A stretch of DNA of 59,473 bases from an uncultured Enterobacteriaceae bacterium (GCA_964509455.1 CAZDXS010000157.1:1-59473), one strand, 5' to 3'. Positions 650-24,025 are shown, counted from the stretch's first letter. The notes: generated from the sequence alone by a model not told the origin. Numbers and translations: made by a program.

Positions 650-1507
650 CTACTTGGCCACCACCACCATGGCCGGCCGCAACAAGCGCCCGTTCAGCTC
701 GTATCCTTTCTGCATCACCTCCATCACCAGGCCCGCTTTGTGGTCCTTGGAATCCTGCATGGAGACGGCCTCGTGCCATTCCGGGTCAAACTTCTCGCCC
801 AGCGGTTCAATGGGGCGCACCCCGAACTTGTCCAGGCAGTCGAAAAACATTTTCAGGGTAAGTTCCATGCCTTCCCGCAGGGCCGCGGCGTCCGCCTCCG
901 CCGCGGCGTCAATGCCGCGCTCCATGCTGTCCGCCACGGGCAACAACTCTTTTACAAATCTCTCCAGGGCGTACTTGTGAGCGTTCTCCATGTCGCGGGC
1001 GGTGCGCTTGCGCAGGTTGTCCATTTCCGCCGTGATGCGCAGCGCTTTGTCGAGGTTCTCCTGGGCCTGTTGTTCCAGGCGCTGGTTTTCCTGCGCCAGG
1101 ACGGCGAACTCATCCACGGCCGCGGCGGCGCTGTCGGCGACGGCCGCGGCTGTCTCGCCGTTGGTGGCGTTTCTGTCACCGGCGGTCGCATTGCCTCCGT
1201 CCGCGTCGATTGCCGCGGCGTTGCTGTCGCCGCCGGTCGCGGCGGTTGTCTCCCCGTTCGCGGCGGCGTTGTCGGCGGCGGTCGCGGCGGTCGTCTCCCC
1301 GTTCGCGGCGGCGTTGTCGTTGGCAGTCGCGGCGGTCGTCTCCCCGTTTGCGGCGCTGTTTTCGCCGGCGGCCGCTGTGTTGTTGTCGCCAGGCGCCGCG
1401 CCGTGGCCGTCAGCGCCGGCGGCCGCGCGCCCGGCAGAGTTTCCCCCGGACTCCCCGGCGGCGGCTGTTGCGTCCTGTTGTTCTGTTGCCTGTTCAGTCT
1501 TGGTCAT
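650..1507 (-). CDS. grpE: Nucleotide exchange factor GrpE with long low-complexity N-terminus
   Basis: AEMDNLRKRT, LLPVADSMERG, GEKFDPEWHEAV, QKGYELNGRLLRPAMVVVAK; ATG at 1507; downstream of hrcA. Confidence 0.96.
   Translation of the reverse strand: MTKTEQATEQQDATAAAGESGGNSAGRAAAGADGHGAAPGDNNTAAAGENSAANGETTAATANDNAAANGETTAATAADNAAANGETTAATGGDSNAAAIDADGGNATAGDRNATNGETAAAVADSAAAAVDEFAVLAQENQRLEQQAQENLDKALRITAEMDNLRKRTARDMENAHKYALERFVKELLPVADSMERGIDAAAEADAAALREGMELTLKMFFDCLDKFGVRPIEPLGEKFDPEWHEAVSMQDSKDHKAGLVMEVMQKGYELNGRLLRPAMVVVAK
1236..1360 (-). repeat. 45-bp coding tandem repeat (x3) in the grpE N-terminus
   Basis: GTCGCGGCGGT(T/C)GTCTCCCCGTT at 1236, 1281, 1326; encodes NAAANGETTAATAxD. 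Confidence 0.9.
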
Positions 1508-8205: not shown

Positions 8206-8469
8206 CAGTGTTGACCATGTCCGCTCGCCTGGATGCCGTTCCCCGAAGCGCGGCGCCTGCATCACCTTGTGCGGCGCCGCATGCGGCGCCGTGGCGCGGC
8301 GCGGGCGCACCTGCCGTTGTCGCAACGCCGCGAATGCGCCGGTGCGCAGGCGCGGCAAGCAACGCCGGCCTGGCGCGGATGCCGGCGCCCGGCGCGGCAA
8401 ACGCCTCAGCATTCTCTCCACGGCGCCCGCGAAACTGGTAAACTGGCTGGCAGGCAACAAGGCAACATC

Positions 8470-10062
8470 ATGGCATCCAAGCGCAAACAAAAAAACGACG
8501 CGAGCCGCACCGCAACCGCCGCCAACGGCGCGAATCTGGGCTTCGAGAGGCGGCTGTGGGCCGCCGCAGACAAGATGCGCGGCAGCATGGACCCCTCCGA
8601 GTACAAGCACATCGCCCTGGGCCTCATCTTCCTCAAGTACATCTCCGACGCTTTCGAGGCGCACCGCGCCGCCCTGCTGGAAAATAAACAGGCGGATGCG
8701 GAAGACCCGGACGAGTACCTGGCCGCCAACGTCTTCTGGGTTCCCGACAAGGCCCGCTGGTCCCACTTCCAGGCCCATGCCAGGCAACCGTCCATCGGCA
8801 AGATTATCGATGACGCCATGCATGCCATAGAGTCCAGGAACAAGATCCTCAAGGGCGTGTTGCCGAAAATCTACGCGCGCCCCATGCTGAACAAGGTGAT
8901 GTTGGGAGAGTTAATCGACCTTGTCAGCGGCATCGGCATGGGCGAGAAGAGCGACCGCTCGCGGGACGTGCTGGGCCGGGTCTATGAGTATTTTCTGGGC
9001 GCTTTCGCCAGCGCCGAGGGCAAAGGTGGCGGCGAGTTTTACACGCCCAGTTCCATCGTACGCCTGCTGGTCGAGATGCTGGAGCCCTACAAGGGCCGCG
9101 TCTATGACCCCTGTTGCGGCTCCGGCGGCATGTTCGTGCAGTCAGGGAGGTTCGTGGAAGAGCACGGCGGGCGCATCGTCGACGACATCGCCATCTACGG
9201 CCAGGAGAGCAACCCCACCACTTGGCGGCTGGCGCGAATGAACCTGGCGGTGCGGGGCATACCCGCGGAACTGCACTGGAACAACGAGGGCAGCTTCCAC
9301 AAGGATGCGCTGCCTGACCTCAAGGCCGACTTCATCCTGGCCAACCCGCCGTTCAACGATAAGGACTGGGGCGGCGAGCGTCTGCGGGAGGACGCCCGCT
9401 GGCGGTTTGGTGTGCCTGTGAGCAATTCCAACTACGCCTGGTTGCAACACATACGCCACCACCTGGCGCCCGGCGGCGCGGCGGGCGTGGTGCTGGCTAA
9501 CGTTACCATGTCCTCAGGAAAGTCCGACGAGGCCGCCATTCGCCGCGCCCTAGTAGCGGCAGACCAAGTGGACTGCATGGTGGAGTTGCCGGGACAACTT
9601 TTCTACACCACCTCGAGCCTCGCCTGTCTGTGGCTCCTTTCCCGCGACAAAAATGCCGACAAAAAAGGGGGGCGCGACCGCCGCGGCCAGGTGTTGTTCA
9701 TCGATGCCCGCGCCCTGGGCCGCATGGTGGACCGCAAGCACCGGGAATTTACGGACGAGGACATTGAGAAGGTGGCGCGTTGCTACCATGCCTGGCGCGG
9801 CGAACCAGACGCCGGCGAGTACCAAGACATTCCGGGCTTTTGCAAGGCCGCGACCCTGGAGGAAATCGAAGAGCGCGACTGCGTGTTGGCACCGGGACGC
9901 TACGTGGGGGCGGCGCCGGTGGAGGAGGACGGCGAGCCGTTCGCAGACAAGATGCGGCGCCTGGCCGCGGACCTGGGCGAGCAACAGGCCGAGGGGGCGC
10001 GGCTGGACGCGGAAATACGCCGCAACCTGCAAAAACTGGGCTTTGACGCGGGGAAGTCGTGA
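8470..10062 (+). CDS. hsdM: Type I R-M methyltransferase subunit
   Basis: [31 protein letters not shown]; ATG at 8470. Confidence 0.95.
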
Positions 10063-11312
10063 ACATCGACCAACAGGAAGTGGAGCGCCAACTGTGCTTG
10101 GGCGAGGACAGCCGCTGGGAATTCAAGCAAGTGGAGTTTCGCGGCGACAAGCCCGTCAGCCCGTCGCGGGATGATTTGGCCGACGAAATCGCGGCCCTCG
10201 CCAACACGGACGGCGGCGCGGTATTGTGCGGCGTAACGGATGCCGGCGCGGCCCAGGGGCTGTCCAGGGAGCAAATGGATGCTCTGGACGTGCTGGTGGT
10301 GGATGTATGCTCCGATGCCATCCATCCCCCCATAATCCCCGACACACGCCGCTTGGAAGTTGCCGGCGGCAAGCCGTTGCTGTTGGTGCGCGTTTCAGCG
10401 GGTGACGCCGTGCATGAAAGCCCCGGCGGCGACTTTCAGCGAGAGGGCAACTCCCTGCGGCGAATGACCGACGAACAGCGCCTGCGCCTGGCGCAACGGC
10501 GCGGGCAAGCGCGCTTCCTGTGGTTCGATAAGCAACCCGTGCCAGGCACCGGCTTCAACACCTTGGAAGAGAGCCTGTGGAAACCGTTGTTGAGCGCCGC
10601 CGGCGCCGCCGACCCCAGGGCGGCGCTGAAGAGGATGGGCCTGTTGATAAATGATGACAAGCAGAGGTTGCGGGCGTCGGCGGCGGGCATACTGCTGTGT
10701 TGCTCCGCGCCTGATGAGTGGTTTCCCAACGCCTGCATCACGGCTGTTTGCTATCGCGGCGAGGACCGGGCATCAGGACAGGCGGACGCGCAAACCATCA
10801 GCGGCCCGCTTCCCCGCCAAATCAAGGAAGCCGTTGCTTTCGCGGTACGCAACATGCGCGTGCCCGCTCTCAAGGCGCCGACCCGGGAGGAGCGGCCCCA
10901 GTACAGCGAACAAGCGTTGTTCGAGGCGGTGGTCAATGCCGTCGTCCACCGCGATTACGCCATCAAGGGCAGCCGGATTCGCTTGTCCATGTTTGCCGAC
11001 CGGCTGGAGCTTCAATCGCCCGGCCAGTTGCCCAACGGCATGACCGTGGACAGCCTGGGAGACCGGCAATCGGTACGCAACGAGGTGTTGGTTGCGATTC
11101 TCGGCAGGGCGCCGGTGAACGGCATTCGCGGCGGCGGCGACCGGTTGTATCTCATGGAGCGGCGCGGGGACGGCATACCCATTATTCGGCGCGAGACCCG
11201 GGCGCTCAGCGGCAAACCGGCGCAGTTCAAAATGGTGGACGGAGTGGACTTGCGCCTCACCCTGCCCGCGGCCCCGCCGCAGGCGCCGACCCCCGTCCGT
11301 CCAATGCGCTGA
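10059..11312 (+). CDS. AlbA_2 (Schlafen-like) domain + RecG-C/HATPase_c_4 domain protein
   Basis: [19 protein letters not shown] at N-terminus; [26 protein letters not shown]-terminally; GTGA overlap with hsdM stop. Confidence 0.85.
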
Positions 11313-11352
11313 GGCGCATCTCGGTAAGTTGCCGCGCTGGGACCGGGTAACG

Positions 11353-11886
11353 TGGTAAGGAAACCGCTGTTTTGTTACCATGTTCACGGCGATATGGTAA
11401 GGAAGTCGCCGTTTCGTTACCATGTCTTTGGCGATATGGTAAGGAAGTCGCCGTTTCGTTACCATGTCCTGGGCAATGTGGTAAGGAAAGTGCCGTTTTG
11501 TTACCATGTCCTCGGCGATGTGGTAAGCAAAGCACCGTTTTGTTACCATGTGCCTGGCGATATGGTAAAATAACCACCGTTTCGTTACCATGTTTCTGGC
11601 GATATGGTAAGATAACCGCCGTTTCGTTACCATGTCCACGGCAATATGGTAAGCAAACTGCCGTTTCCTTACCATGTCCTGGGCGATGTGGTAATAAAAC
11701 CGCCGTTTCGTTACCATGTTTCTGGCGATATGGTAAAGAAATCGCCGTTTCGTTACCATGTCCTCGGCGATGTGGTAAGGAAAGCGCCGTTTCGTTACCA
11801 TGCCCGCGGCAATATGGTAAGCAAAGCACCGTTTTGTTACCATGTCCTCGGAAATTTGGTAGGATAACCACAACTTTTTTATCATG
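11353..11886. repeat. Strict 42-bp tandem array (12 full units + degenerate 13th) with internal dyad symmetry TGGTAA-N16-TTACCA-N14
   Basis: TGGTAA every 42 bp from 11353 to 11815, TGGTAG at 11857; TTACCATG in all 12 full units; no indels. Confidence 0.97.
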
Positions 11887-12993
11887 TCAAAGTCAAGCGA
11901 TACCCTGACCAACCTGCCGCCAGCCGTTGACCTGGAGACGGCCCCGGTGCTGAAAGCGCTGACGACTGCCCACCGGGCGCTCGCGGAGTTGAAAGGGCGT
12001 GCCGCTACCATTCCCAACCAGAGCATTCTGGTCAATACTCTCACCCTGCAAGAGGCGAAAGCATCATCTGCAATAGAGAACATCGTTACCACCCAGGACG
12101 AACTCTTTCAGGCGGAGCTGTCTCCTGAAAATACGCAATCTGCAGCAACTAAGGAAGTAGCTCGTTACCGTGAAGCATTGAAATTGGGCTTCAAACGCCT
12201 GGAAGATTCCCAAGGCATCATCTCTAACAACACGCTGATCAAGATGTTTCAACTGTTGAAAGAAAGGAGTGGTGGCTTTCGGGAGACGCCTGGCACCGTG
12301 CTAAAAGACGGCCGCACCGGGAGAACTATCTATACGCCGCCGCAGGATGCTAACGAGATCGTGGCGTTGATGACGGACCTGGAACGCTTTGTCAACGAGG
12401 ACGATGCCTGCCCCTTGGATCCACTGACCAAGATGGCGCTCATTCACCACCAGTTCGAGAGCATCCACCCTTTCCCCGACGGCAACGGCAGGGTCGGGCG
12501 CATCCTGAATGTCCTCTACTTGGTCCGTGTCGGCTTGCTGGAATCTCCGATACTTTATCTCAGCCGCTACATTATTCGAACCAAAAATGATTATTACCAC
12601 TTGCTCCAAGCAGTGCGCGGCAACGGCGATGAGGCCGATGCGTGGAGGAAATTGGTGCTGTATATGCTGGAGGGAGTCGCGGAGACGGCGTGCGCCACGC
12701 TGGAGCTGGTGGAGGGCATGCGGGAGCAGACGGCCGCCGCCAAGCATCGCATGCGAACGGAGTTCCCCAGGATGTACTCCCAGGATTTGCTGAACAACCT
12801 GTTTCGGCACCCCTACACGCGCATCGAGTTCGTAGCGGAGGAACTGGACGTCACGCGGCACACGGCCGCCAAGTACCTGGACGCCCTGGCGGGGGCGGGC
12901 TTCGTGCGCAAGCATCGAGTGGGGCGCAACAACTACTATATTAATGAGCGGCTCGTGCAACTGTTCCTGGACGCCGCCGGCGAGTCCCAGTGA
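11884..12993 (+). CDS. Fic family protein (SoFic-like; N-terminal inhibitory helix, C-terminal HTH)
   Basis: HPFPDGNGRVGR Fic motif; SSAIEN inhibitory motif; C-terminal VTRHTAAKYLDAL...G HTH-like segment. Confidence 0.93.
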   Translation: MSKSSDTLTNLPPAVDLETAPVLKALTTAHRALAELKGRAATIPNQSILVNTLTLQEAKASSAIENIVTTQDELFQAELSPENTQSAATKEVARYREALKLGFKRLEDSQGIISNNTLIKMFQLLKERSGGFRETPGTVLKDGRTGRTIYTPPQDANEIVALMTDLERFVNEDDACPLDPLTKMALIHHQFESIHPFPDGNGRVGRILNVLYLVRVGLLESPILYLSRYIIRTKNDYYHLLQAVRGNGDEADAWRKLVLYMLEGVAETACATLELVEGMREQTAAAKHRMRTEFPRMYSQDLLNNLFRHPYTRIEFVAEELDVTRHTAAKYLDALAGAGFVRKHRVGRNNYYINERLVQLFLDAAGESQ

Positions 12994-13052
12994 GCGACGG
13001 GGAAGCATCGGTCGTCAACCCAGGCCGGCGCTGTACAGACCTGCCCTGGAGA

Positions 13053-13061
13053 TGGTATACT
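13053..13061 (+). promoter_or_regulatory. Putative extended -10 promoter for the membrane protein-TIR pair
   Basis: TG-G-TATACT about 26 nt before ATG 13087. Confidence 0.45.
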
Positions 13062-13086
13062 CGACTCAAATTTGGAAACCTTGACG

Positions 13087-13473
13087 ATGGAAGCGAAACT
13101 CAAACATCTTGAATTCATTCAGGGCGTGATTAACCGCCTTGCCGCCGCCTCGTTCAGCGTAAAACGATGGGCCGTGCTCTTGGTGTCGGCGCTCATCTTT
13201 TTGCTGGCGAGAGAGGGGACGTTCGAGTTTGCCTGGGCGGGCTTTGCGTCAGTGGCGATATTCTGGGGGCTTGACGGCTACTTCCTGTGGCAAGAGCGGC
13301 TGTTCCGCGCCCTTTACGACCACGTTCGCAACCTGGACGACCGGGAGATCGACTTCTCCATGGACGCCCGCGCTTTCAAGCGCAGTTGGCTTGGCGCGGT
13401 ATTCTCCCGGACATTGGTCCCGTTTTATCTCGTGCTGGCCGCGCTGGTCGGCGCGGTGGCGTTCATTAACTAA
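13087..13473 (+). CDS. Small multi-pass membrane protein (putative TIR-associated effector)
   Basis: HLEFIQGVINRLAAASFSVKRW, three hydrophobic segments, LDGYFLWQERLFRALYD; directly upstream of the TIR gene. Confidence 0.75.
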   Translation: MEAKLKHLEFIQGVINRLAAASFSVKRWAVLLVSALIFLLAREGTFEFAWAGFASVAIFWGLDGYFLWQERLFRALYDHVRNLDDREIDFSMDARAFKRSWLGAVFSRTLVPFYLVLAALVGAVAFIN

Positions 13474-13494
13474 CCGGACCGAGAGGTGGCAAAA

Positions 13495-13938
13495 ATGGTG
13501 CGACAAGTATTTTTCAGTTTCGAGTACAAGCACGACGTATTACGGGCCAATGTTGTCCGTAAGAGTGGGCTAACTCAGGACCGTGATGATGCTGGATTTG
13601 TGGATGCTGCCGAATTCGAGAAAATTGAGAAAAGAGGTAAAGAAGCCATCAAGAAGTGGATTAGAGAGCAACTTTACGGAACGTCTGTTACTGTCGTGCT
13701 GGTTGGTTCTCATACTTGCGATAGTTACTACGTCGATTATGAGATCGAACAGAGCAAAGCACGAGGCAACGGTCTATTGGGGATTGATATCAGCGAGATA
13801 AAGGATCCAAAGAAAGGGAGGAGCCGGTGTTGCGGTATCATCCCGGCAGGTTATCCATTCTACAGTTGGTTTGGAGACGACGGTTACAAAAATATGGGCG
13901 ATTGGATTGAGAAAGCCGCCAAGGATGCCGGGCGCTGA
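13495..13938 (+). CDS. TIR-like domain protein (ThsB/DUF1863 type)
   Basis: VFFSF, GTSVTVVLVG, YVDYEI (catalytic Glu), RGNGLLGI; GAGGTG Shine-Dalgarno before ATG 13495. Confidence 0.88.
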   Translation: MVRQVFFSFEYKHDVLRANVVRKSGLTQDRDDAGFVDAAEFEKIEKRGKEAIKKWIREQLYGTSVTVVLVGSHTCDSYYVDYEIEQSKARGNGLLGIDISEIKDPKKGRSRCCGIIPAGYPFYSWFGDDGYKNMGDWIEKAAKDAGR

Positions 13939-14084
13939 TCATTGGTAGTTCTCATGGGCATGAACGAAGCGTCCCTGCTGGTGGATTTGCGGCCCGACCG
14001 CTCGGCGCTCGTGCGAGGCACCGCTCGCCGTCCCGAGTTTTTGTCTGTGCAGATAAAATACCCGGCACGAATACCGGAGAACCC

Positions 14085-15296
14085 ATGAACTGGGTAGATA
14101 CAACGGTTGGTAACTTCTGTCCATTCAAGTATGGGAAAACCCTGCGCGCCAAGGACAGAAAAGGAGGTGGCGTTCCCGTCTATGGATCAAACGGGATCGT
14201 CGGCTACCACAACGAGGCCTGTGTGGAGGGTGGCGGTGTGATTATTGGTCGAAAGGGTAGCGTTGGATGTGTACATTATTCCGACAACTCCTTTTGGCCA
14301 ATTGACACGACATTTTACGTTTCTAGCGAAGTTAAATCGGAAAATCTATTTTGTAGTTACCTGCTTTCTACCTTGGGACTACAAAATATGAACTCCGATA
14401 CGGCGGTTCCCGGGCTGAATAGAAATTATGTCCATAGCCTGCCAATTCGGATACCCCGGACTCAGAAAGAGAGAGCAAATTTGATTAATCCTCTGCGTGC
14501 CATCGACGACAAAATCGAGTTGAACCGGCGGACGAACGAGACGCTGGAGGCGGTGGCGCGAACGATCTTCAAGGACTGGTTCGTCGATTTCGGCCCCACC
14601 CGCGCCAAGATGGAAGGCCGCGACCCCTACCTTCCCCAGCACCTCGTTGATATCTTTCCAACCCGCCTCGTGAACTCCGAACTCGGCCAAATTCCGGAGG
14701 GGTGGGCGACTGGCACGGTCGCCGATCTCGCTGATCGAATTATCGACAAGGTTGATCATTTTGCTGAATGGCAAGCAGAGCCTCTTATCGATCTCAGCCG
14801 CATGCCACAGCGAGAAATCGCTTTGATGGATTGGGGCCTTGGTGGAGAGTTGACGACCTCGATCACAAGATTTCAGTTGCGAGACACGCTGTTTGGGGCC
14901 ATACGGCCATATTTCCACAAGGTTGGGGTTGCTCCTGTAAATGGCGTAACGAATGTATCAGTGTTTGTCGTTAGGGCAAAAGTGAATGCTGACTGGCCTT
15001 TTATCGCGCTCTTCTGCTCAATGAGCGATACGGTTTCCTGGGCAACGCGTGTCGCGAAGGGGACGAAGATGCCAGTCGTGAGTTGGCCGGATTTCGCTGA
15101 TGCGTCGCTCGTAGTCCCGACATCGCCCCTGCGTATGCGTTTCAATCAGATGGTAGGGCCTCTCCTTGATCGTATCATTGCGAACGCAATCGAATCCAAT
15201 GCACTAGCGGCAACACGCGACGCGTTGTTTCCCAAGCTTATCTCCGGCGAAATCCGAGTGGAGGACGTGGGTGGAGATGTCGGGGAAGCAGTATGA
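14085..15296 (+). CDS. hsdS: Type I R-M specificity subunit
   Basis: Two TRD-like halves; conserved IDDKIELNRRTNETLEAVARTIFKDWFVDF, IPEGW, LAATRDALFPKLISGE. Confidence 0.93.
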   Translation: MNWVDTTVGNFCPFKYGKTLRAKDRKGGGVPVYGSNGIVGYHNEACVEGGGVIIGRKGSVGCVHYSDNSFWPIDTTFYVSSEVKSENLFCSYLLSTLGLQNMNSDTAVPGLNRNYVHSLPIRIPRTQKERANLINPLRAIDDKIELNRRTNETLEAVARTIFKDWFVDFGPTRAKMEGRDPYLPQHLVDIFPTRLVNSELGQIPEGWATGTVADLADRIIDKVDHFAEWQAEPLIDLSRMPQREIALMDWGLGGELTTSITRFQLRDTLFGAIRPYFHKVGVAPVNGVTNVSVFVVRAKVNADWPFIALFCSMSDTVSWATRVAKGTKMPVVSWPDFADASLVVPTSPLRMRFNQMVGPLLDRIIANAIESNALAATRDALFPKLISGEIRVEDVGGDVGEAV

Positions 15297-16357
15297 AAAA
15301 AGCAGTTCGTCAATTTCGTGAAAAGGCGATCAATGCCCTGATACTCTCCATTGATCACTTCAATCGCCCTTGGGACCAAGGTAGAACCGAAGCCGTGCTT
15401 ATTATGTTCGATCATTCGTTTGAAATGCTTCTCAAGGCTGCGATCTTGCATCGACGAGGCAAGATACGAAAGCCGCGTGAAAGGCAAACAATCGGATTCG
15501 GCGATTGCGTCCGGAAAGGGCGAACTGATGTAAATCTGAAAATTCTGAATGACGAGCAGGCGCTCACACTCCAGGCAATCCACGAACAGCGCAATGCTAC
15601 CTATCACCACCTTATCGATATTTCCGAACATCATTTGTACTTCTATGCTCAGTCTGGGATTACTCTATTCCGAGACATCCATGATGATGTTTTTGAAGAA
15701 AAATTGATAATTCATTTACCCGAAAGAGTCCTCCCAATTTCCACAACTGCACCGAAAGATTTGTCCGCACTATTCGATAATGAAGTCAACGAAGTCAAAA
15801 AACTTCTGTCTCCCGGTACTCGTACAAAAATGGAGGCCATGGCAAAGGTTAGAAGCCTGTCAACGCTTGAAAACGCAGTGAATGGAAACTACGGGCAACC
15901 AGGCGATAGAGAACTTGAAAAGATATGCAAGCGCATCTCCGGCGGAGAAGCATGGAAATCCGTTTTCCCTGGCGTGGCGCTTATCAATATCTCTTCTGCA
16001 CCTGAGGGGGCGACTATCAATTTTCGTCTTACCAGAAATGCAGGGGTTCCGATCCATCTCCTGAAAGAAGAAAGGATGGGGGCTGTCGTTGCGCTACGCC
16101 GAGTGAACGAGACTGATTTTTATAATCTGGGTGCGAAGCAATTGGCTAAGAAAGTTGGGATCACGGTGCCGAAGTTAGTCGCCATCGTAGATTATCGGGG
16201 GATCCGGACGGACGAGGATTACTACAAGGAAATCCGGATCGGTAGTACGGTGCACAAGCGATATTCGCAACATGCTATTCGTAAAATTCAGAATGCTCTG
16301 GTTACCGAATCCATCGAAGAGATATGGGTAGCTTGTCAGAAAAAACGCAAGAAATAA
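15293..16357 (+). CDS. DUF3644-like HEPN-type protein
   Basis: HSFEMLLKA and RNATYH (Rx4H); ATGA overlap with hsdS stop. Confidence 0.65.
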   Translation: MKKAVRQFREKAINALILSIDHFNRPWDQGRTEAVLIMFDHSFEMLLKAAILHRRGKIRKPRERQTIGFGDCVRKGRTDVNLKILNDEQALTLQAIHEQRNATYHHLIDISEHHLYFYAQSGITLFRDIHDDVFEEKLIIHLPERVLPISTTAPKDLSALFDNEVNEVKKLLSPGTRTKMEAMAKVRSLSTLENAVNGNYGQPGDRELEKICKRISGGEAWKSVFPGVALINISSAPEGATINFRLTRNAGVPIHLLKEERMGAVVALRRVNETDFYNLGAKQLAKKVGITVPKLVAIVDYRGIRTDEDYYKEIRIGSTVHKRYSQHAIRKIQNALVTESIEEIWVACQKKRKK

Positions 16358-16358
16358 G

Positions 16359-17078
16359 ATGGCTCGATTCACCCAAAATGATGAGGATAGCGTAGTTATG
16401 GTGGGGGAAATATTCCAAGGCAATTGCCCTTATTGTGGCACTCGACAGGTGGCATTTGAGATTCTGCGTTTTACTCCTGACGATCTTAGGGGTTTAACTA
16501 TGACGATAGGTGGGATGAATTTTCCCGTACCAATGGATGTAGATATATTTGCAAAATGCGCACAATGTGACCGTGGAGTTGCAGGGGAAGCACGGATTAC
16601 GCTCGATAGAGGCGCATCGGGTATCGAGATTCTCGAGCCCAAGGTCTTTTCTCGACCCGACATTCCAACATTGAGGCATATTCCCCCAGATGTGAGGGAT
16701 ATTTTTAGAGAAGGCCAGGAGAGTATGTGGGACAAACGCTACATGGCAGCTGGGGCGATGTTTCGCAAAGCATTGGAAGCAGGAATGAAAATCAAGTTTC
16801 CTGAACTCCGAGGGTCTTTGCAGAGGTGTATTGATCAGGCGAAGAAAGACAGTCTTCTAACGGCAGAGATGGCGGAATGGGCTCACCAAATACGCTCTCT
16901 TGGCAACGAAGCTGCGCATGAGGAACGCTTCTTGGAAGACGATGCCAAAGAGTTGCACACATTTACCCTCTTGGTACTGCTCTACCTATTTACGTTGCCG
17001 GAGATGATGAAAAACGCCCGTGAAAAGAACAAGCTTGATTCCGAAAATGCCGAGACTACGACTCGTGCTGAAGAGTAA
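16359..17078 (+). CDS. DUF4145 (HEPN) domain protein with N-terminal Zn-ribbon-like Cys pairs
   Basis: CPYC/CAQC; AAGAMFRKALE; IRSLGNEAAHE. Confidence 0.8.
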   Translation: MARFTQNDEDSVVMVGEIFQGNCPYCGTRQVAFEILRFTPDDLRGLTMTIGGMNFPVPMDVDIFAKCAQCDRGVAGEARITLDRGASGIEILEPKVFSRPDIPTLRHIPPDVRDIFREGQESMWDKRYMAAGAMFRKALEAGMKIKFPELRGSLQRCIDQAKKDSLLTAEMAEWAHQIRSLGNEAAHEERFLEDDAKELHTFTLLVLLYLFTLPEMMKNAREKNKLDSENAETTTRAEE

Positions 17079-17092
17079 GGATTGGTACTGAC

Positions 17093-17341
17093 ATGACTGC
17101 CCCTGTTTCTGATGCAAGGATGAACTACCCCGCCATCAACTATTCGGAATTTTCTGAATTCGCAGGAGCGCGTCCGCCAAGCGCCTGGATGTCCTATCTG
17201 GCGCGAGTCCAATGGGCGGTAAGCCCAGGTGAAAGCTACCATATATTGTGGAATAGCCAGGATCCAATACAGGGACTTGATCTGACATACCGTATCTGGT
17301 ACCATTCGTTGGTAGTGAATTGTCGTACATTAACTGGTTAG
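17093..17341 (+). CDS. Small hypothetical protein (82 aa)
   Basis: Fills the gap between DUF4145 and patatin on the same strand with short spacing; no motif recognised. Confidence 0.35.
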   Translation: MTAPVSDARMNYPAINYSEFSEFAGARPPSAWMSYLARVQWAVSPGESYHILWNSQDPIQGLDLTYRIWYHSLVVNCRTLTG

Positions 17342-17359
17342 CCCGGGAGGTTGCCCGCG

Positions 17360-18286
17360 ATGGAACGGGTTTGTCGCATTCTCAGCCTGGACGGCGGGGG
17401 GTCGAAAGGTTTCTACACGCTCGGCGTACTCCGGGAGGTAGAAGCCATGTTGCCGCGCCCCATCAACGAGACGTTTGATCTCATTTTTGGAACCAGCACC
17501 GGTTCGATCATCGCGGCGTGCCTGTCGCTCGGCCGCTCCGTGGACGAGATTCATCAAGCGTACCGCAAGTATGTCCCCCGCATCATGGGGGTGGCATGTC
17601 CCGGCGCCAGGACCGCGGCGTTGCGGGCGGCGGGGGAGGATATTTTCGGCGATGCGGGTTTTGACCAAGTGAAAGTCCGCCTCGGGATTGTCGCTACCCG
17701 GTGGCAACGTGAAACCCCGATGATCTTCAAGAGCAGTGAGAGCCAAGCCCATGGGCGCCGGGCAACTTTTGAACCCGGCTTTGGTTGCTCCATTGCTGAT
17801 GCGGTGGAGGCTTCCTGCGCGGCGTATCCCTTCTTCAAGCGGAAAACGGTTGCCACGTCCGGGGGCGAGAAAGTTGAACTCTTCGATGGCGGGTATTGCG
17901 CGAACAACCCGACTCTGTACGCCCTCGCCGAAGCGACCACCGTGCTTGGGCATGCGCCGGAAAATTGTCATGTTCTGAGTATTGGCTGTGGTCAATACGC
18001 GCCGCCGCGGCGCAGTTTCATTCGGCGGTTATGTAAGGCAATCATTTTTCCAGCACTTGTGGAGAAAGTCGCTAACGTAAATTCGACATCGATGGACCAG
18101 TTGCGGCAACTTCTGTTTTCGGCGGTGCCGACGGTACGAATCAGCAATACTTGCGAAAAGCCGGAATTGGCGACCGACATGTTCGAAGACGACCTGGAAA
18201 AGTTGAACCTCCTTTGGCAACAAGGCAGGCACTCGTTCGCCGCCCGGGAGAAACAAATCCGAGAACTGCTCCTGGAGGAGGAATAA
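17360..18286 (+). CDS. Patatin-like phospholipase, CBASS effector (CapE/CapV-like)
   Basis: LSLDGGGSKG, GTSTG, DGG; GGAGG before ATG 17360; 2 nt upstream of the CD-NTase. Confidence 0.9.
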   Translation: MERVCRILSLDGGGSKGFYTLGVLREVEAMLPRPINETFDLIFGTSTGSIIAACLSLGRSVDEIHQAYRKYVPRIMGVACPGARTAALRAAGEDIFGDAGFDQVKVRLGIVATRWQRETPMIFKSSESQAHGRRATFEPGFGCSIADAVEASCAAYPFFKRKTVATSGGEKVELFDGGYCANNPTLYALAEATTVLGHAPENCHVLSIGCGQYAPPRRSFIRRLCKAIIFPALVEKVANVNSTSMDQLRQLLFSAVPTVRISNTCEKPELATDMFEDDLEKLNLLWQQGRHSFAAREKQIRELLLEEE

Positions 18287-18288
18287 TC

Positions 18289-19182
18289 ATGGCAATTTCT
18301 GAACAACAGCTGGAAACCTGGTCCCACCAAGGGTCAGTGGCGCAGTCCAGCAACACCTACAATTCAATCAAGGCGGTTCTCGAAGCTGGAGAGGCGCCTT
18401 ATGCCCACAGGCACTTCGAGGTTTACCTGCAGGGTTCATACGGCAACCACACCAACGTGTATGCTGAGAGCGACATAGACATTGTTATTTGTCTTATGGG
18501 CGTTTGGTACCGTGATATATCGAATCTGTCTCCGGAAGAACAGGCCGTATACAATGCTGACCACTGGCCGGCGCAGTATGGGTTTCATCATTTCAAAAAT
18601 GACGTTTTGATCTGGCTCAGAGAAAATTTCGGGGCCGGTGTTTGCCAGGGGAAGAAAGCGATTTTCATTCCCGGAAACGGTGGCCGGCGGGAGGCGGATG
18701 TGCTTGCCTGCGTTGAACACCGTAGATACGTCTCGTACCGTCCCAATGGAATTCAATACTACACCGGGATTTGCTTCTGGGCTACTGACGGCCGAGTGTT
18801 TATCAACTTTCCCAAACAGCACAAGGAAAACTGTAAGGGCAAACACCAGAACACGCAGGAGCAATTCAAGCCGAGTGTTCGCATCTTGAAGAACATGCGC
18901 AAAGCCATGGCAGATGAGGGCTATCTGCCGGATGGCGTCGCGCCCTCCTACTTTCTCGAGGGGATGTTGTACAATGTTCCTGATCAATATTTCGGCGTAC
19001 AGTACCAGCCGACCATTGAGAATTGCCTGCGGTGGTTGGAGCAGTGTGATTCGGAAAAACTGGTCTGCGCGAATTGTTTGCACTGGCTGATTAGAGACAG
19101 CCAAGTTGAATGTTGGAACTTGGGGGACTTTCAACTTTTTCTGGACTCCGCCCGTAGATACTGGGATAATGGCGGCCGCTAA
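18289..19182 (+). CDS. cdnE: cGAS/DncV-like nucleotidyltransferase, CdnE type
   Basis: QLETWSHQG, YLQGSYGNHTNVYAESDIDIV, ADVLAC, INFPKQH, FKPSVRILKN, PSYFLEGMLYNVP. Confidence 0.9.
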   Translation: MAISEQQLETWSHQGSVAQSSNTYNSIKAVLEAGEAPYAHRHFEVYLQGSYGNHTNVYAESDIDIVICLMGVWYRDISNLSPEEQAVYNADHWPAQYGFHHFKNDVLIWLRENFGAGVCQGKKAIFIPGNGGRREADVLACVEHRRYVSYRPNGIQYYTGICFWATDGRVFINFPKQHKENCKGKHQNTQEQFKPSVRILKNMRKAMADEGYLPDGVAPSYFLEGMLYNVPDQYFGVQYQPTIENCLRWLEQCDSEKLVCANCLHWLIRDSQVECWNLGDFQLFLDSARRYWDNGGR

Positions 19183-19232
19183 CAGTGCGGCCGCTTGTGA
19201 ACCGCGTCCGCCGCCATGCTGGGTAACCGACT

Positions 19233-19451
19233 ATGAAATCTGCCACGACCAAGAAGAGACAGCGCCTCAGTCAGGAGGAAATTGAGCAGACCTTTCGCGA
19301 TCTGGGTCTCGATGACCCGGAGGTGCGCCGCCGCTTCCAGCAACTCTCAGAATTTGAGGGCTGGTCCAGCGGCTGGAAAAGGCGGGAATATTACGACCGC
19401 TTCGCCATCAACAGAAGAAATTTCGTGGGGAGAAATCCAGGAGACAAGTAA
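19233..19451 (+). CDS. Small hypothetical protein (72 aa) coupled to the S49 peptidase
   Basis: TAATG stop/start overlap with the next gene. Confidence 0.55.
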   Translation: MKSATTKKRQRLSQEEIEQTFRDLGLDDPEVRRRFQQLSEFEGWSSGWKRREYYDRFAINRRNFVGRNPGDK

Positions 19452-20446
19452 TGCCAAGTTGGAATGAACTGCTAAATGAAATTCAGAATGCCGAAGGCCC
19501 ATACGATGCAATCCTCCGTAGGTATTTAGCCAAGCTTCATAAGGTAACCGGCCGCAACGTGATCGTTTATAGCTCGGGTTGGCTTCAAAAGGGGATGATG
19601 CCGGGGGTGGAGATCAATGATGATGACAAGAATGGTTTCATGGCCGCCATTCATAAAATGGACAGGGACAAGGGGCTGGACCTTATCCTGCATACGCCGG
19701 GTGGAGAGGTGGCGGCGGTCGAATCCATTGTCAACTACTTGCGGGCAATGTTCCGAACGGACATGCGGGCGATTATTCCACAATTGGCGATGTCCGGCGG
19801 CACGGTGATTGCTTGTGCCTGCAAGGAAATCATCATGGGGAAGCACTCCAGCCTGGGGCCGATTGACCCTCAGTTAAGGGGCATTCCGGCTCATGGCGTG
19901 ATTGAGGAATTTGAGCGCGCCAAAAAGGAGGTTAAAGCAAACCCCAGCACCATTCCGGTATGGCAAGCCATAATCAACAAATATCACCCCACCCTGATTG
20001 GAGAATGTGAGAAAGCAATCGCCTGGTCCACGGAGATGACCGAGGAATGGTTGCGCACGGGGATGTTCAAGGGAGAAAGCAATGTTGGCAAGAAGATTCA
20101 GGAAATACTTGATCAGCTGGGCGATCATGCCCTGACGAAGTCCCATGAACGACACCTGGCTTTTGATCGTTGTGTAGATATGGGCCTCAAGGTGAGCGCC
20201 CTGGAGGATGACGATGATCTCCAGGAGGCGGTGTTGTCGTTGCACCATGCGTGCATGCTCGCCTTTACTTACACCCCCGCTTTCAAAATTATTGAAAACC
20301 ACGATGGGGTGGCGTTCATTAAGAAGTTTACGCCAGCGCCGTCACTGCTAACCCGGGAGATGTCGGCCACATCCCAGGACCAGCCGCCGCCCATGCCGGA
20401 TGCCAGCGGAGCGCCGGCAAAAGAATCCGCAGGCCGCCAGGGTTAG
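19451..20446 (+). CDS. SDH_sah / S49 (ClpP-crotonase fold) serine peptidase
   Basis: LDLILHTPGG, PQLAMSGGTVIA, SSLGPIDPQ. Confidence 0.85.
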   Translation: MPSWNELLNEIQNAEGPYDAILRRYLAKLHKVTGRNVIVYSSGWLQKGMMPGVEINDDDKNGFMAAIHKMDRDKGLDLILHTPGGEVAAVESIVNYLRAMFRTDMRAIIPQLAMSGGTVIACACKEIIMGKHSSLGPIDPQLRGIPAHGVIEEFERAKKEVKANPSTIPVWQAIINKYHPTLIGECEKAIAWSTEMTEEWLRTGMFKGESNVGKKIQEILDQLGDHALTKSHERHLAFDRCVDMGLKVSALEDDDDLQEAVLSLHHACMLAFTYTPAFKIIENHDGVAFIKKFTPAPSLLTREMSATSQDQPPPMPDASGAPAKESAGRQG

Positions 20447-20779
20447 CAGGGCGCCAAAGACCTTTGAAGCACGGGAGTTTGCCAACGGCGCACCGGCGGC
20501 CAACCAGGCGCCGGCGTTGCGGCTCGCGGCGTTCTATCACTGGGCGCGGGGGACGGAAATCTTGGCCCGTTGCCTGTTGCGGGGAGGGCAGGCAACCCCG
20601 TTCAACTCGCTGGACAAGCATTTCGAAGCCGGCGTCAAGGCGGCGACTGCCGCCGGCGATGCCCGGCACGAAGTCATCCTGCGCTGGTTCTGCGCCGCGG
20701 CGCACATCATGGTCGCCGATTCATCCCGGCGGGCGCCGGGCGCCGTCAACTTGAACAGGGACGCGGCGCCGCCAACCCC

Positions 20780-23700
20780 ATGAGCTACCTGGCGGAAAGC
20801 GACGTAGAAAACACGGCGCTTGAATGGTTTGCGGGGCTTGGCTACGCCGTGTTGCACGGGCCGAACATCGCTCCAGACGGGGCGGCACAAGAGCGGGTCA
20901 GTTATGACCAGCCGCTGTTGGAAGGCCGCCTGCGCGCCGCCCTGGAGCGCCTCAATCCGCACTTGCCGCCCGCCGCGTTGGAGGAGGCGTTGCGCCGTTT
21001 GCAACAATCCGAAACGCCCTCCCTGGTCGAAGAAAACCGCCGCCTGCACGGCTTCCTGGTCGAGGGCGTTCCAGTGGAGACCCGGCGCAAGGACGGCAGC
21101 CTCGGCGGCGATGCGGTGCGTTTGCTGGACTACGAACGGGCGGACGCCAATGACTGGCTGGCGGTCAACCAATATACGATGATTGAAAACGGCAACAACC
21201 GCCGCCTCGACGTCGTGGTGTTCGTCAACGGCATGCCCCTGGCGGTCATCGAGCTCAAGAATCCCGGCGATGAACACGCCACGCTGGAAAGCGCTTTCAA
21301 CCAGTTGCGCACCTACCGGGACCAGGCGCCGTCGCTGTTTCGCACCAATGCCGCGCTGGTCATCTCGGACGGGGTAACAGCGCGCATCGGTTCGCTCACC
21401 GCGCCCCGCGAACGCTTCATGCCCTGGCGCACGGTGGCGGGAGAGGAGCCGGTCCCGGGCGCCGCGCCGGAGCTGGAAACGCTGGTGAGCGGCGTGTTCG
21501 AGAAGAGCCGCTTCCTGGCGTTGGTGCGGGGGTTCACGGTGTTTGCCGACAAGGATTCCGGCCCTGCCAGGATCCTGGCGGGCTATCACCAGTTCTTTGC
21601 CGTGCGCCGGGCGGTGGAAAGCACCGTGCGGGCGTCCGCCCCCGACGGCGACCGGCGCGTCGGCGTCATCTGGCATACCCAGGGCTCCGGCAAAAGCCTG
21701 CTCATGGTGTTCTACGCGGGGCAGGTCATCCGTTGCCCCGCCATGGAGAACCCCACCATCGTGGTGCTTACCGACCGCAACGACCTGGACAGCCAGCTGT
21801 TTGCGACGTTCTCCGCCTGCCGCGACCTGTTGCGCCAGACGCCGCATCAGGCGCAGGACCGGGAAGACCTGCGGCAGCGCCTGTCCCGTCCCTCCGGCGG
21901 CGTGATTTTCACCACCATTCAGAAGTTTGCGCCCGCCGCCGACGCCGCGGATTACCCCGCCATGACCGACCGCCGCAACGTGGTCGTGATTGCCGACGAG
22001 GCGCACCGCAGCCAGTACGGATTCAGGGCGAACGTGGACCACCGAACGGGGCGGGTCTCTTACGGCTTCGCCGGCTACCTGCGCGAGGCCCTGCCCGGGG
22101 CCTCGTTCATCGGTTTCACCGGCACGCCCATCGAGCATGACGATGCGAACACGCCCGCCGTCTTTGGCGACTACCTGGACGTGTACGACATCAACCGCGC
22201 GGTGGAGGACGAGATTACTGTCCCCATCTACTACGAGAGCCGTCTCGTCCGCATCGACCTGAGCGAGACCGAGATGCCGCGTCTTGACGAGGACATCGCC
22301 CGGGTCATGGAAGGAGACGTGGAGGTTGCCGGCGCGGGCGACCATCCCGAGGCCGCCGCCTCCCAGGGCGTTGAGTACGAGCCGCCTCCTTACCAGGAGG
22401 ACGGCGCCGGCCAGGCTGAGTTGGCGGAGGAGGAGCAGGAAAGATTGACGCGCAAGTGGACGCGGGTCGAGGCCGTGGTGGGCGCCGAGAAGCGCCTCGC
22501 CATGATTGCGGAAGACCTGGTTCAGCACTTCGAGGACCGGTTGGCGGGCATGGACGGCAAGGCCATGGTCGTGTGCATGAGCCGCCGCATCTGCGTCGCC
22601 CTGTATGAGCAGATTACCAAGTTGCGCCCCGGCTGGCACAGCGATGACGACAACGCCGGGGAGATCAAGGTGGTGATGACCGGTGCGCCGTCCGACCCGG
22701 CGGAGTGGCAAGCGCACGTCGGCGGCAAGGGCCGCCGGGAATTGCTGGCGCGGCGCATTCGGGACCATGAAGACCCGCTGCGGCTGGCGCTGGTCCGGGA
22801 CATGTGGTTGACCGGCTTTGACGCGCCCTGCGTGCACACGATGTATGTTGACAAGTACATGGGCGGGCACAACCTCATGCAAGCCATTGCCCGCGTGAAC
22901 CGGGTCCATCAAGACAAGCCGGGCGGGCTGATCGTGGACTACATCGGCATTGCCCAGAAGCTTAAATCCGCGCTGGGGGAGTATTCCCACGCGGACCGGC
23001 AACATGCGGGCATAGATGAGGCGGAAGCCGTTCGGGTGTTGCAAGAGAAGTACGAAACCGTGTGCGCCATGTTCCACGGGTTTGATTACCAGGCGGCCTT
23101 GTCCGGCTCGCCGCAGGAGCGCCTGGCGACCCTGGCGGAAGCGATGGAGTGGATCCTGGCCATGCAACGGCGCGACACGGCGGCGGCGGAGTCCGCCGCG
23201 GACAAGAAGCGGGCGCGGCGCCGGTTCGATGATGCGGTGCTGGCCCTTTCCAAGGCTTTCGCCTTGGCGGCCGCTAGCGACCTGGCGCGGCAAATCCGGG
23301 ACGAAGTCGGGTTCTTCCAGGCCGTGCGCGCGGCCCTTGCCAAGACCCGGATGATGGCGGACGCGGCCACCGCCGAGCAGGAGTTTGCGATTCAGCAACT
23401 GGTCAGCCGCGCCGTCATCTCCACCGACATTGTTGACATTCTCAATGCGGATGGACTGAAAACGCCGAATGTCTCCATTCTTTCCGACGAGTTCTTGGCG
23501 GAGGTGCGCGACATGGAGAAAAAGAACCTGGCCCTGGCGGTGTTGCACAAGCTGCTCAACGACGCCATTCGCTCCCGCAGCCAGGAAAACGTGGCGCAAT
23601 CGCAGGCTTTTTCCGAGCGGCTGAGAGAGTCCGTTGCCCGTTACTACCTGAATGCCGCCACGGCGGCGGAGGTGATCCAGGAGTTGATCAACTTGGCCAA

Positions 23701-24025
23701 GGATATTCGCGCCGCCCACCAGCGCGGCGAGGAAGAGGGCCTCAGCCAGGAGGAAATCGCCTTTTATGACGCCCTGGCGCAGAATGAAAGCGCAGTGGAG
23801 GTGATGGGCAACGAGCAGCTTTGCGTCATTGCCCAAGAGTTGCTGAACAGCCTGAAAGCCAACGTGCCCGTCGACTGGCAACACCGGGAAGCCGCCCGCG
23901 CCGAAATGCGGGTGCGGGTGAAGCGCATCTTGAAAAAGCACGGCTATCCGCCGGACCTGCAAGATGCCGCGGTGCAGACGGTGTTGCAACAGGCCGAGGC
24001 GTTGGCCGCGCGCTGGGCCGCTTGA
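20780..24025 (+). CDS. hsdR: Type I restriction enzyme R subunit
   Basis: [18 protein letters not shown] nuclease motif; [39 protein letters not shown]; ATG at 20780. Confidence 0.96.

What the first reader, a model, noticed from the sequence alone, without database searches (positions are those of the whole stretch)
13053..13938. Two-gene membrane protein + ThsB-like TIR cassette with its own promoter
Known: Thoeris ThsB TIR domains make a signal that activates ThsA (SIR2-SLOG or TM-Macro). Seen: a TIR with intact catalytic Glu (VDYEI) is paired with a 128-aa, about 3-TM protein that has no room for a SLOG or Macro sensor. Inference: a minimal TIR-signalling system in which the membrane protein itself senses the signal, or the TIR acts directly.
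Basis: partly seen in the sequence, partly recalled or inferred. Interest (0 to 1): 0.65.

Follow-up and report, generated by a model that had tools for sequence, protein, structure and literature searches.

The report
Type V Thoeris cassette (ThsF–ThsB)
The two genes are a real small-membrane-protein plus TIR-enzyme phage-defence pair, but the pair is already catalogued (PADLOC candidate PDC-M50) and was named type V Thoeris in a 2025 preprint, so this is an ordinary new copy sitting inside a restriction-modification operon.

Summary
Window 13087-13473 encodes a 128-aa protein with three hydrophobic helices. Window 13495-13938, 21 nt downstream, encodes a 147-aa ThsB-type TIR whose VDYEI glutamate (E83) aligns with the catalytic E85 of Bacillus cereus ThsB.

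The pair is not new. Both proteins match PADLOC's candidate system PDC-M50 (A 3.9e-42; B 3.7e-43, ThsB1 1.5e-52). The membrane protein is 47% identical (E 1e-34) to the gene next to a ThsB that is 71% identical to the validated type V Thoeris ThsB of Bacillus sp. 1NLA3E. The window TIR is 63% identical to a TIR listed as "DUF2270 - Type V" by Yirmiya et al. (bioRxiv 2025). That paper shows type V defence in Bacillus and 3'cADPR-triggered toxicity of the 3-TM effector ThsF.

Linkage is strong: at least 59 of 80 genome loci carrying the membrane gene have a ThsB TIR beside it.

The cassette lies in a low-GC cargo block between hsdM and hsdR of a type I R-M system, alongside SoFic, PDC-S19 and a CBASS.

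This TIR clade, its signal and its gene order remain untested. Interest is low.

The parts
13032..13061 (+). sigma-70-like promoter candidate (TGTACA, 18 nt, TG-n-TATACT) 26 nt upstream of the thsF start codon
   Evidence: 9 of 12 positions match, with a TG extension. The region has 3 such sites against 1.2 expected. Consensus match only.
13087..13473 (+). thsF-like gene: 128-aa, 3-TM membrane effector (PADLOC PDC-M50A)
   Evidence: Family assignment: PDC-M50A 3.9e-42. It is 47% identical, E 1e-34, to the effector next to a close homologue of a validated type V ThsB. That effector also matches PDC-M50A, at 2.4e-49.

Structure: AF2 pLDDT 84 with three long helices and three hydropathy peaks.

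Conservation: R17, D63 and E70 are invariant in 91 diverse members.
13495..13938 (+). thsB: 147-aa ThsB-type TIR protein with catalytic Glu E83 (VDYEI)
   Evidence: Matches: Pfam ThsB_TIR 2.7e-21; PADLOC ThsB1 1.5e-52 and PDC-M50B 3.7e-43; PDB 6LHY/9B7D 6.5e-21 with the Glu aligned.

E83 is invariant in 54 of 54 partners.

It is 63% identical to IMG 2265063291, which Yirmiya Table S1 lists as 'DUF2270 - Type V'.
14023..14038 (+). weak terminator-like hairpin followed by a T run, after thsB and before hsdS
   Evidence: 5-bp stem with 3 GC pairs. The count of such sites is no higher than in shuffles, so it is uncertain.
8233..10062 (+). hsdM, methylase of the type I R-M system that holds the cassette. 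The true start is probably about 78 codons inside this ORF.
   Evidence: PADLOC MTase_I 2.2e-202, matching residues 100-604.
14085..15296 (+). hsdS, type I specificity subunit, immediately downstream of the cassette
   Evidence: Pfam Methylase_S 9e-13; PADLOC Specificity_I 7.6e-75.
20570..24025 (+). hsdR, type I restriction subunit, closing the R-M operon
   Evidence: Pfam HSDR_N, SWI2_SNF2 and T1RH-like_C; PADLOC REase_I, E reported as 0.

Best explanation
The cassette is a type V Thoeris anti-phage system (equivalent to PADLOC candidate PDC-M50), carried as cargo inside a type I restriction-modification operon.

Proposed mechanism:
1. ThsB, a TIR enzyme with catalytic E83, is inactive until it detects phage infection.
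2. It then converts NAD+ into a cyclic ADP-ribose isomer. The best guess is 3'cADPR.
3. ThsF is a 128-aa inner-membrane protein with a cytosolic N-terminal helix, a TM hairpin, a cytosolic helix carrying conserved E70/R71/R74, and a third TM helix. It sits in the membrane as a ring-shaped homo-oligomer.
4. The nucleotide binds cytosolic, positively charged pockets between ThsF protomers. ThsF then breaches or depolarises the membrane, and the infected cell stops growing or dies before phage is released.

Shown here: the gene pair, the family membership of both proteins, the conserved catalytic Glu, and the conserved linkage.

Taken from the literature on homologues: defence, 3'cADPR production, effector toxicity and the oligomer model.

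Inferred for this locus: that it is active, what triggers it, and which signal it uses.
For: Catalogue matches:
- Both proteins match the two-gene PADLOC candidate PDC-M50 (A 3.9e-42; B 3.7e-43, ThsB1 1.5e-52).
- Payne et al. list that cassette as CAS_00164, seen 57 times, found by 'guilt by embedding' in R-M, BREX and DISARM systems.

Link to type V Thoeris:
- In Exiguobacterium (L106) and Thalassobacillus (L107), a ThsB 71% identical to the validated type V ThsB of Bacillus sp. 1NLA3E is followed by a 135-aa gene.
- That gene is 47% identical (E 1e-34) to window protein A and matches PDC-M50A at 2.4e-49 and 7.2e-51.
- The window TIR is 63% identical to a TIR that Yirmiya Table S1 labels 'DUF2270 - Type V'.
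- 17 of 91 diverse family members weakly hit PF10028, best E 1.4e-5.
- The catalytic Glu aligns with BcThsB E85 and is invariant in 54 of 54 partners.

Linkage and effector role:
- At least 59 of 80 loci have thsB next to thsF.
- The ThsF TM module also occurs fused to an N-terminal SLOG sensor (LD_cluster2 1.7e-15), in an operon with a TIR gene. That marks it as an effector module of nucleotide signalling.

Genome context:
- The own genome has no SIR2_2 (ThsA-type) gene.
- The published type V work reports defence in B. subtilis, infection-dependent 3'cADPR, 3'cADPR-induced toxicity, inhibition by Tad1, and an AF3 heptamer with positive pockets.
Against: - No experiment exists on this clade. 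The validated type V systems are from Bacillus, have the opposite gene order (thsB then thsF), and use TIRs only about 22% identical to this one.
- The one proteobacterial type V system tested (Vibrio cholerae) gave no defence in E. coli.
- For a second validated type V system, added 3'cADPR was not toxic. The signal is therefore not settled even within the type.
- The window protein itself does not reach Pfam DUF2270 (no hit at E <= 0.1).
- A profile-profile comparison with housekeeping-type DUF2270 proteins is weak (probability 25%, E 7.7e-4). The 'DUF2270' label is thus a remote-homology label.
- About a quarter of thsF homologues among the 80 loci had no TIR detected within 6 kb.
- The oligomeric state could not be modelled with the tools available.
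Confidence: 0.85

Rival explanations
1. It is the same gene pair, but the TIR is the killing effector: it depletes NAD+. The small membrane protein would be a sensor, anchor or regulator rather than the effector.
For: Some bacterial TIRs are NAD+-depleting effectors, for example in CBASS, Pycsar and TIR-pAgo contexts (named). The 128-aa partner has no recognisable ligand-binding domain.
Against: - The TIR is of the ThsB family (PADLOC ThsB1 1.5e-52) and is 43% identical to the signal-producing BcThsB.
- In type V Thoeris, added 3'cADPR alone makes effector-carrying cells stop growing.
- The same TM module is fused to SLOG sensors in a TIR operon. That is the layout expected of an effector.
Confidence: 0.06
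2. It is a type V-like system that uses a signal other than 3'cADPR, such as 2'cADPR, canonical cADPR or an undescribed ADPR derivative. The reason would be that this TIR clade differs from the validated ones.
For: - The TIR is about 22% identical to the validated Bacillus sp. 1NLA3E type V TIR.
- The TIR cluster it falls in (2612507145) also holds TIRs paired with patatin effectors, and it resembles TIR 2 of the P. aeruginosa type III system.
- One validated type V system did not respond to 3'cADPR.
Against: The closest TIR with a known product is BcThsB (43% identity), and it makes 3'cADPR. The only ThsF with a known ligand responds to 3'cADPR.
Confidence: 0.3
3. The cassette is a silent or decaying passenger in this genome. 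It is kept by hitch-hiking in the defence island and gives no protection.
For: - Related loci show decay: frameshifted or remnant TIRs in L001, L017, L021, L044 and L068, and insertions between the two genes in L033, L039 and L072.
- The island is foreign by composition: 44-55% GC against 62-73% in the flanks.
Against: Both ORFs are intact and full length. All invariant residues are kept: R17/D63/E70 in ThsF and E83 and the other conserved TIR positions in ThsB. A promoter-like site and a ribosome-binding site are present.
Confidence: 0.07

Closest known systems
Type V Thoeris (ThsB + ThsF 'DUF2270' 3-TM effector), Yirmiya et al., bioRxiv 10.64898/2025.12.03.692087 (Dec 2025)
   Same: - It is a two-gene TIR plus small 3-TM effector operon with no separate sensor domain.
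- The effector family is the same: 47% identity to the effector beside a 71%-identical homologue of a validated ThsB.
- TIRs 54-63% identical to the window's are listed as type V in Table S1.
   Different: - The gene order is reversed: thsF then thsB here, thsB then thsF in the Firmicute loci.
- The TIR clade differs from the validated Bacillus systems (about 22% identity).
- Nothing from this clade, or from a gammaproteobacterial host, has been shown to defend.
- The signal is not known for this clade.
PADLOC phage-defence candidate PDC-M50 (Payne et al., bioRxiv 10.1101/2024.01.29.577857; cassette CAS_00164)
   Same: Both proteins hit the PDC-M50A and PDC-M50B models over their full length. 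The cassette is embedded in a type I R-M operon, which is how PDC-M50 was discovered.
   Different: PDC-M50 is an untested, computational candidate with no mechanism attached.
Type I Thoeris ThsB of Bacillus cereus MSX-D12 (PDB 6LHY, 9B7D)
   Same: It has the same TIR family and fold. Identity is 43% over the TIR core, and the catalytic Glu is aligned.
   Different: The partner is not ThsA (SIR2-SLOG). No SIR2_2 gene exists anywhere in this genome.
Type II (TM-Macro, ThsC) and type VII (SLATT, ThsH) Thoeris membrane effectors
   Same: They follow the same logic: a TIR-made ADPR derivative activates a membrane-disrupting effector.
   Different: ThsF has no Macro domain and hits no Pfam SLATT model. 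It has three TM helices rather than the SLATT 2-TM layout.
TIR 2 of the Pseudomonas aeruginosa L0872 type III Thoeris (multi-TIR + SLOG effector)
   Same: The TIR is 54% identical over 137 residues.
   Different: That system has four TIR genes and a SLOG effector. It was proposed from operon architecture only.

Membership tests
Type V Thoeris (ThsB-ThsF) | A ThsB-type TIR protein with the catalytic glutamate | tested here: met
   Pfam ThsB_TIR 2.7e-21. PADLOC ThsB1 1.5e-52. E83 aligns with BcThsB E85 and is invariant in 54 of 54 partners.
Type V Thoeris (ThsB-ThsF) | An effector of the ThsF family: a small protein with three membrane helices | tested here: met
   It is 47% identical, E 1e-34, to the 135-aa gene next to a ThsB that is 71% identical to the validated Bacillus sp. 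1NLA3E ThsB. Both effectors hit PDC-M50A. Three helices or hydrophobic segments are seen. The validated ThsF sequence itself was not available, so the link runs through a close homologue of its partner.
Type V Thoeris (ThsB-ThsF) | The effector is annotated Pfam PF10028 (DUF2270) | tested here: inconclusive
   The window protein has no PF10028 hit at E <= 0.1. 17 of 91 family members hit it weakly, best 1.4e-5, which is below the 25-bit cut-off. hhalign against housekeeping DUF2270 gives probability 25% and E 7.7e-4.
Type V Thoeris (ThsB-ThsF) | The two genes are adjacent in one operon, and this is conserved across genomes | tested here: met
   The gap is 21 nt and both genes are on the same strand. 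At least 59 of 80 loci have the TIR next to thsF.
Type V Thoeris (ThsB-ThsF) | Protects against phage, with infection-dependent 3'cADPR that triggers effector toxicity | not testable with these tools
   This is known only for Bacillus representatives.
Type V Thoeris (ThsB-ThsF) | The effector forms a ring-shaped homo-oligomer with positively charged inter-protomer pockets | not tested
   Only a monomer could be predicted. Conserved basic and polar residues on the cytosolic helices (H7, R17, K26, R74) are compatible with such pockets.
PADLOC PDC-M50 | Adjacent genes matching the PDC-M50A and PDC-M50B models | tested here: met
   A: PDLC04686 3.9e-42, residues 6-130 of the 133-aa reading. B: PDLC04688 3.7e-43, residues 4-147.
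Type I Thoeris | A ThsA SIR2-SLOG effector next to ThsB | tested here: not met
   The neighbours are SoFic and hsdS. There is no SIR2_2 anywhere in the genome.
Type II Thoeris | A TM-Macro effector | tested here: not met
   The 128-aa partner has no Macro domain.
Type VII Thoeris / SLATT effectors | A Pfam SLATT-domain effector | tested here: not met
   No SLATT model is hit by the window protein or by any of 91 family members at E <= 1.

The most novel reading that the evidence does not exclude
The thsF-then-thsB clade seen here may use a signal or gating mode different from the Bacillus type V systems. This clade has a BcThsB-like TIR from cluster 2612507145, is embedded in R-M systems, and among the hits is common in MAGs of uncultured lineages.

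Two observations leave this open. First, the same TM module is elsewhere driven by a fused SLOG sensor. Second, many intact thsF genes have no adjacent TIR. Standalone ThsF might therefore be a general-purpose receiver that listens in trans to several TIRs, or it might be gated by direct contact with ThsB rather than by a diffusible nucleotide.
Probability: 0.12. Interest if true: 0.55.

Novelty: already known. Interest (0 to 1): 0.2.

Why it matters
Little is new for biology at large. The pair is picked up by existing PADLOC models, and the kind was named and validated (in Bacillus) in 2025.

Three points are still useful:
- The untested PADLOC candidate PDC-M50 and type V Thoeris are the same effector family. 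That gives PDC-M50 a mechanism.
- This is a clean proteobacterial example with the opposite gene order and a BcThsB-like TIR, a clade for which neither defence nor signal has been tested.
- The locus is a textbook case of defence genes nested inside a type I R-M operon. About 10.5 kb of cargo lies between hsdM and hsdR.

Tried and rejected
- Pfam on the membrane protein: only a sub-threshold DUF3899 hit, 17 bits against a 23.4-bit cut-off. I treat it as noise.
- Foldseek of the AF2 monomer against the PDB: no match at E <= 0.001. The best was a designed TM nanopore at E 2.4.
- Sequence and profile searches of the PDB with ThsF: nothing.
- Literature: 'PDC-M50' appears in no paper's main text. 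Searches for '8xMP' and 'octameric membrane protein' found nothing relevant.
- BLASTP between ThsF and the genome's second TIR-associated TM protein (8xMP family): no similarity.
- A hunt for an alternative conserved partner in the 20 loci without a TIR: none found. The only recurrent neighbour is a large upstream gene, in about 6 loci.
- An attempt to reach the validated B. thuringiensis DAR 81934 system through its TIR in plasmid records: the hits were multi-TIR islands with SIR2 or Macro genes and no ThsF next to them.
- SLATT membership was considered because of the helix-TM-TM-helix layout and the SLOG fusions. No SLATT model is hit.

Full report
**What is there**

Between the stop of a SoFic-type Fic gene (11884-12993) and the start of hsdS (14085-15296) lie two co-directional ORFs.

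The first, read from the ATG at 13087, is 128 aa.
- Its homologues all begin MEAKLKHLE, so the TTG at 13072 is unlikely to be the start.
- It has three hydrophobic segments, at about residues 27-43, 48-62 and 109-128.
- An AlphaFold2 model built on 23 homologues (mean pLDDT 84) has one long helix at 2-42, a second at 48-82 and a third at 110-127.
- This reads as a cytosolic N-terminal helix running into TM1, a tight hairpin into TM2 that continues as a cytosolic helix, a loop, and TM3.

The second ORF starts 21 nt later at ATG 13495, with a GAGG about 8 nt upstream, and is 147 aa.
- It matches Pfam ThsB_TIR (2.7e-21).
- It matches the solved ThsB of Bacillus cereus MSX-D12 (6LHY/9B7D, 6.5e-21). 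Its VDYEI lies over VRYEI, which places E83 on the catalytic E85.

The 'own promoter' is a TGTACA-18 nt-TATACT site with a TG extension at 13032-13061. It is a 9-of-12 match in a region where such sites are only modestly over-represented. It is plausible but not demonstrated.

**What it is**

PADLOC's library settles the catalogue question. The membrane protein hits PDC-M50A (3.9e-42). The TIR hits ThsB1 (1.5e-52) and PDC-M50B (3.7e-43).

PDC-M50 is one of 145 'phage defence candidates' that Payne et al. derived from genes embedded inside R-M, BREX and DISARM operons. Their supplementary table lists it as cassette CAS_00164, FAM_00415>>FAM_00416, seen 57 times. It was never tested, and no paper mentions it by name.

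A later preprint scanned defence islands for TIR operons (Yirmiya et al., Dec 2025, 10.64898/2025.12.03.692087). It proposed 29 effector classes and validated seven new Thoeris types.

Type V pairs a TIR with a three-TM protein that the authors annotate DUF2270 and rename ThsF. For this type they report:
- defence in B. subtilis;
- infection-dependent 3'cADPR;
- growth arrest when 3'cADPR is added to cells carrying the B. thuringiensis system;
- inhibition by the sponge Tad1;
- an AF3 homo-heptamer with positively charged pockets between protomers.

Two independent links tie the window to that type.
1. Their Table S1 holds TIR domains of the window's kind labelled 'DUF2270 - Type V'. IMG 2265063291 is 63% identical over 138 residues, and IMG 2517867518 is 54% identical.
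2. I used the TIR domain of the validated Bacillus sp. 1NLA3E system as bait and recovered loci in Exiguobacterium and Thalassobacillus. Each has a TIR 71% identical to the bait, followed directly by a 135-aa gene. That gene is 47% identical to the window's membrane protein (E 1e-34). It hits PDC-M50A even more strongly than the window's own protein does (2.4e-49 and 7.2e-51).

So PDC-M50A and ThsF are one family, and the window cassette is a type V Thoeris by both of its components.

**Caveats on the family label**

The window protein does not itself reach Pfam PF10028.
- Among 91 diverse members, 17 give weak sub-threshold hits, best 1.4e-5.
- A profile-profile comparison with full-length 'housekeeping' DUF2270 proteins of the same phylum gives only 25% probability (E 7.7e-4). 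The aligned columns are sensible, though: W28 falls with the NW motif, and E70-R71..R74 falls with EARRYR.

'DUF2270' is thus a remote-homology label. The robust statement is membership of the ThsF / PDC-M50A family.

That family is large. It has 2111 clusters at 90% identity and 5009 representatives at 50% identity with E <= 0.001.

**Linkage**

Of the 80 best genome loci carrying a ThsF homologue, from many phyla, at least 59 have a ThsB-type TIR beside it.
- Most have it starting within a few tens of nucleotides downstream.
- Five are frameshifted or remnants (L001, L017, L021, L044, L068).
- One is inverted (L046).
- Three are separated from thsF by an inserted gene (L033, L039, L072).

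59 is a lower bound. A Pfam-level scan found a weak TIR directly after thsF in one locus (L028) that my own profile had called empty.

The 20 loci with no TIR share no alternative partner. Ten of twelve such genomes encode ThsB-type TIRs elsewhere, against 1 of 14 control genomes. These effectors could therefore be served in trans.

The catalytic Glu is invariant in 54 of 54 partner TIRs. In ThsF, R17, D63 and E70 are invariant. H7, Q12, K26, W28, R74, Y77 and D89 are nearly so. They cluster on the cytosolic helices and the membrane boundary, where a nucleotide pocket would be expected.

**Support for an effector role**

In some proteins the ThsF module is the C-terminal third of a fusion whose N-terminus is a SLOG domain (LD_cluster2, 1.7e-15). 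One such gene sits in an operon with a TIR gene.

A membrane module that can be bolted onto a nucleotide sensor in a TIR operon is an effector. It is not a sensor of phage.

**Context**

The cassette is cargo inside a type I R-M operon. In order:
- hsdM (8233-10062; MTase_I 2e-202);
- a Schlafen/AlbA_2-HATPase_c_4 gene (10059-11312);
- a 42-bp x 12 tandem array;
- SoFic (PADLOC 1e-114);
- thsF-thsB;
- hsdS;
- PDC-S19/DUF3644;
- DUF4145;
- a CBASS pair, patatin effector (2.5e-140) and cyclase (7.8e-120);
- an S49/SDH-type peptidase;
- hsdR (20570-24025).

From about 11.5 to 20.3 kb the GC content is 44-55%, against 62-73% outside. thsF is about 59% GC and thsB about 46%. This suggests a mosaic history.

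Within the genus, only 3 of 22 other species have a ThsF homologue, and those are more distant. The gene is accessory. The genome has no SIR2_2 gene, so a classical ThsA is not hiding elsewhere.

**Mechanism and rivals**

The best-supported account is the published type V model. ThsB detects infection and makes a cyclic ADPR isomer. ThsF oligomers bind it on the cytosolic side and damage the membrane, which aborts the infection.

For this locus every step after 'the genes are there and conserved' is inference. The signal is the least secure step.
- For 3'cADPR: the nearest TIR with a known product (BcThsB, 43% identity) and the only ThsF with a known ligand both point to it.
- Against: the window's TIR is only about 22% identical to a validated type V TIR.
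- Against: its TIR cluster also serves patatin effectors.
- Against: one validated type V system did not respond to 3'cADPR.

I put about 0.3 on a different signal. I put well under 0.1 each on 'the TIR is the NADase effector' and on 'silent passenger'.

**Verdict**

What remains open is modest. This TIR clade, the reversed gene order and a proteobacterial host have not been tested, and the signal is unknown.

Noticed in passing
own genome, contig C163 (locus L082: 1411-1821 minus strand and 960-1406 minus strand): The same genome has a second TIR plus small-membrane-protein pair.
- It consists of a 136-aa ThsB_TIR (7.1e-17) followed by a 148-aa 3-TM protein of Pfam 8xMP, 'octameric membrane protein family' (1e-33).
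- The TM protein has no PADLOC hit, no solved structure and no BLASTP similarity to ThsF.
- By eye, its TIR resembles those listed with an untested '3TM' effector in Yirmiya Table S1. This pair may be the less-characterised of the two.
   Followed up: partly
window 11353-11851: There is a 42-bp tandem repeat of 11.9 copies with 83% matches. Its unit contains a dyad (GGTAAGGAAACCGCCGTTTCGTTACC). It lies between the Schlafen-like gene and the SoFic start.
   Followed up: partly
window 8233-24025: A type I R-M operon is split by about 10.5 kb of nested defence cargo: a SLFN/AlbA_2 ATPase, SoFic, ThsF-ThsB, PDC-S19, DUF4145, a patatin + cyclase CBASS, and an S49/SDH peptidase. hsdS sits in the middle of the cargo.
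   Followed up: partly
window 11500-20300: There is a sharp GC drop to 44-55%, against 62-73% in the flanks. Within the cassette, thsF is about 59% GC and thsB about 46%. This hints that the two genes were combined from different sources.
   Followed up: no
L112 2689-5137 (metagenome contig); proteins P0185 and P0162: There are fusion proteins with an N-terminal SLOG (LD_cluster2) and a C-terminal ThsF module. One lies in an operon of a TIR_2 gene, a 152-aa unknown gene and the fusion, next to a patatin gene and an nSTAND-like gene. It looks like a Thoeris-like variant in which ThsF is driven by a fused sensor.
   Followed up: partly
L012 and L034 (same MAG chromosome, about 17 kb apart); also L003, L010, L015, L020 and others: These are intact 'orphan' thsF genes with no TIR within 6 kb. 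Ten of twelve such genomes have ThsB TIRs elsewhere. The genome holding L012 and L034 has two orphan copies and no PF08937 hit at all.
   Followed up: partly
L033, L039 (about 1.9-2.2 kb insert) and L072 (about 1.3 kb insert): A gene is inserted exactly between thsF and thsB. In L033 and L039 it is a 525-aa ORF, and in L072 a 416-aa ORF; I guessed an ATPase and a transposase from the sequence but did not scan either. The TIR is intact downstream. The short intergenic spacer may be a recurrent insertion point.
   Followed up: no
loci L001-L080 (record titles): The closest ThsF homologues come overwhelmingly from MAGs of uncultured lineages: Latescibacterota, Binatia, Entotheonella, Vicinamibacterales, Azotimanducaceae, Spirochaetia and Aphanocapsa feldmannii. 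Several of these are lineages I know as sponge symbionts. The sampling sources were not checked.
   Followed up: no
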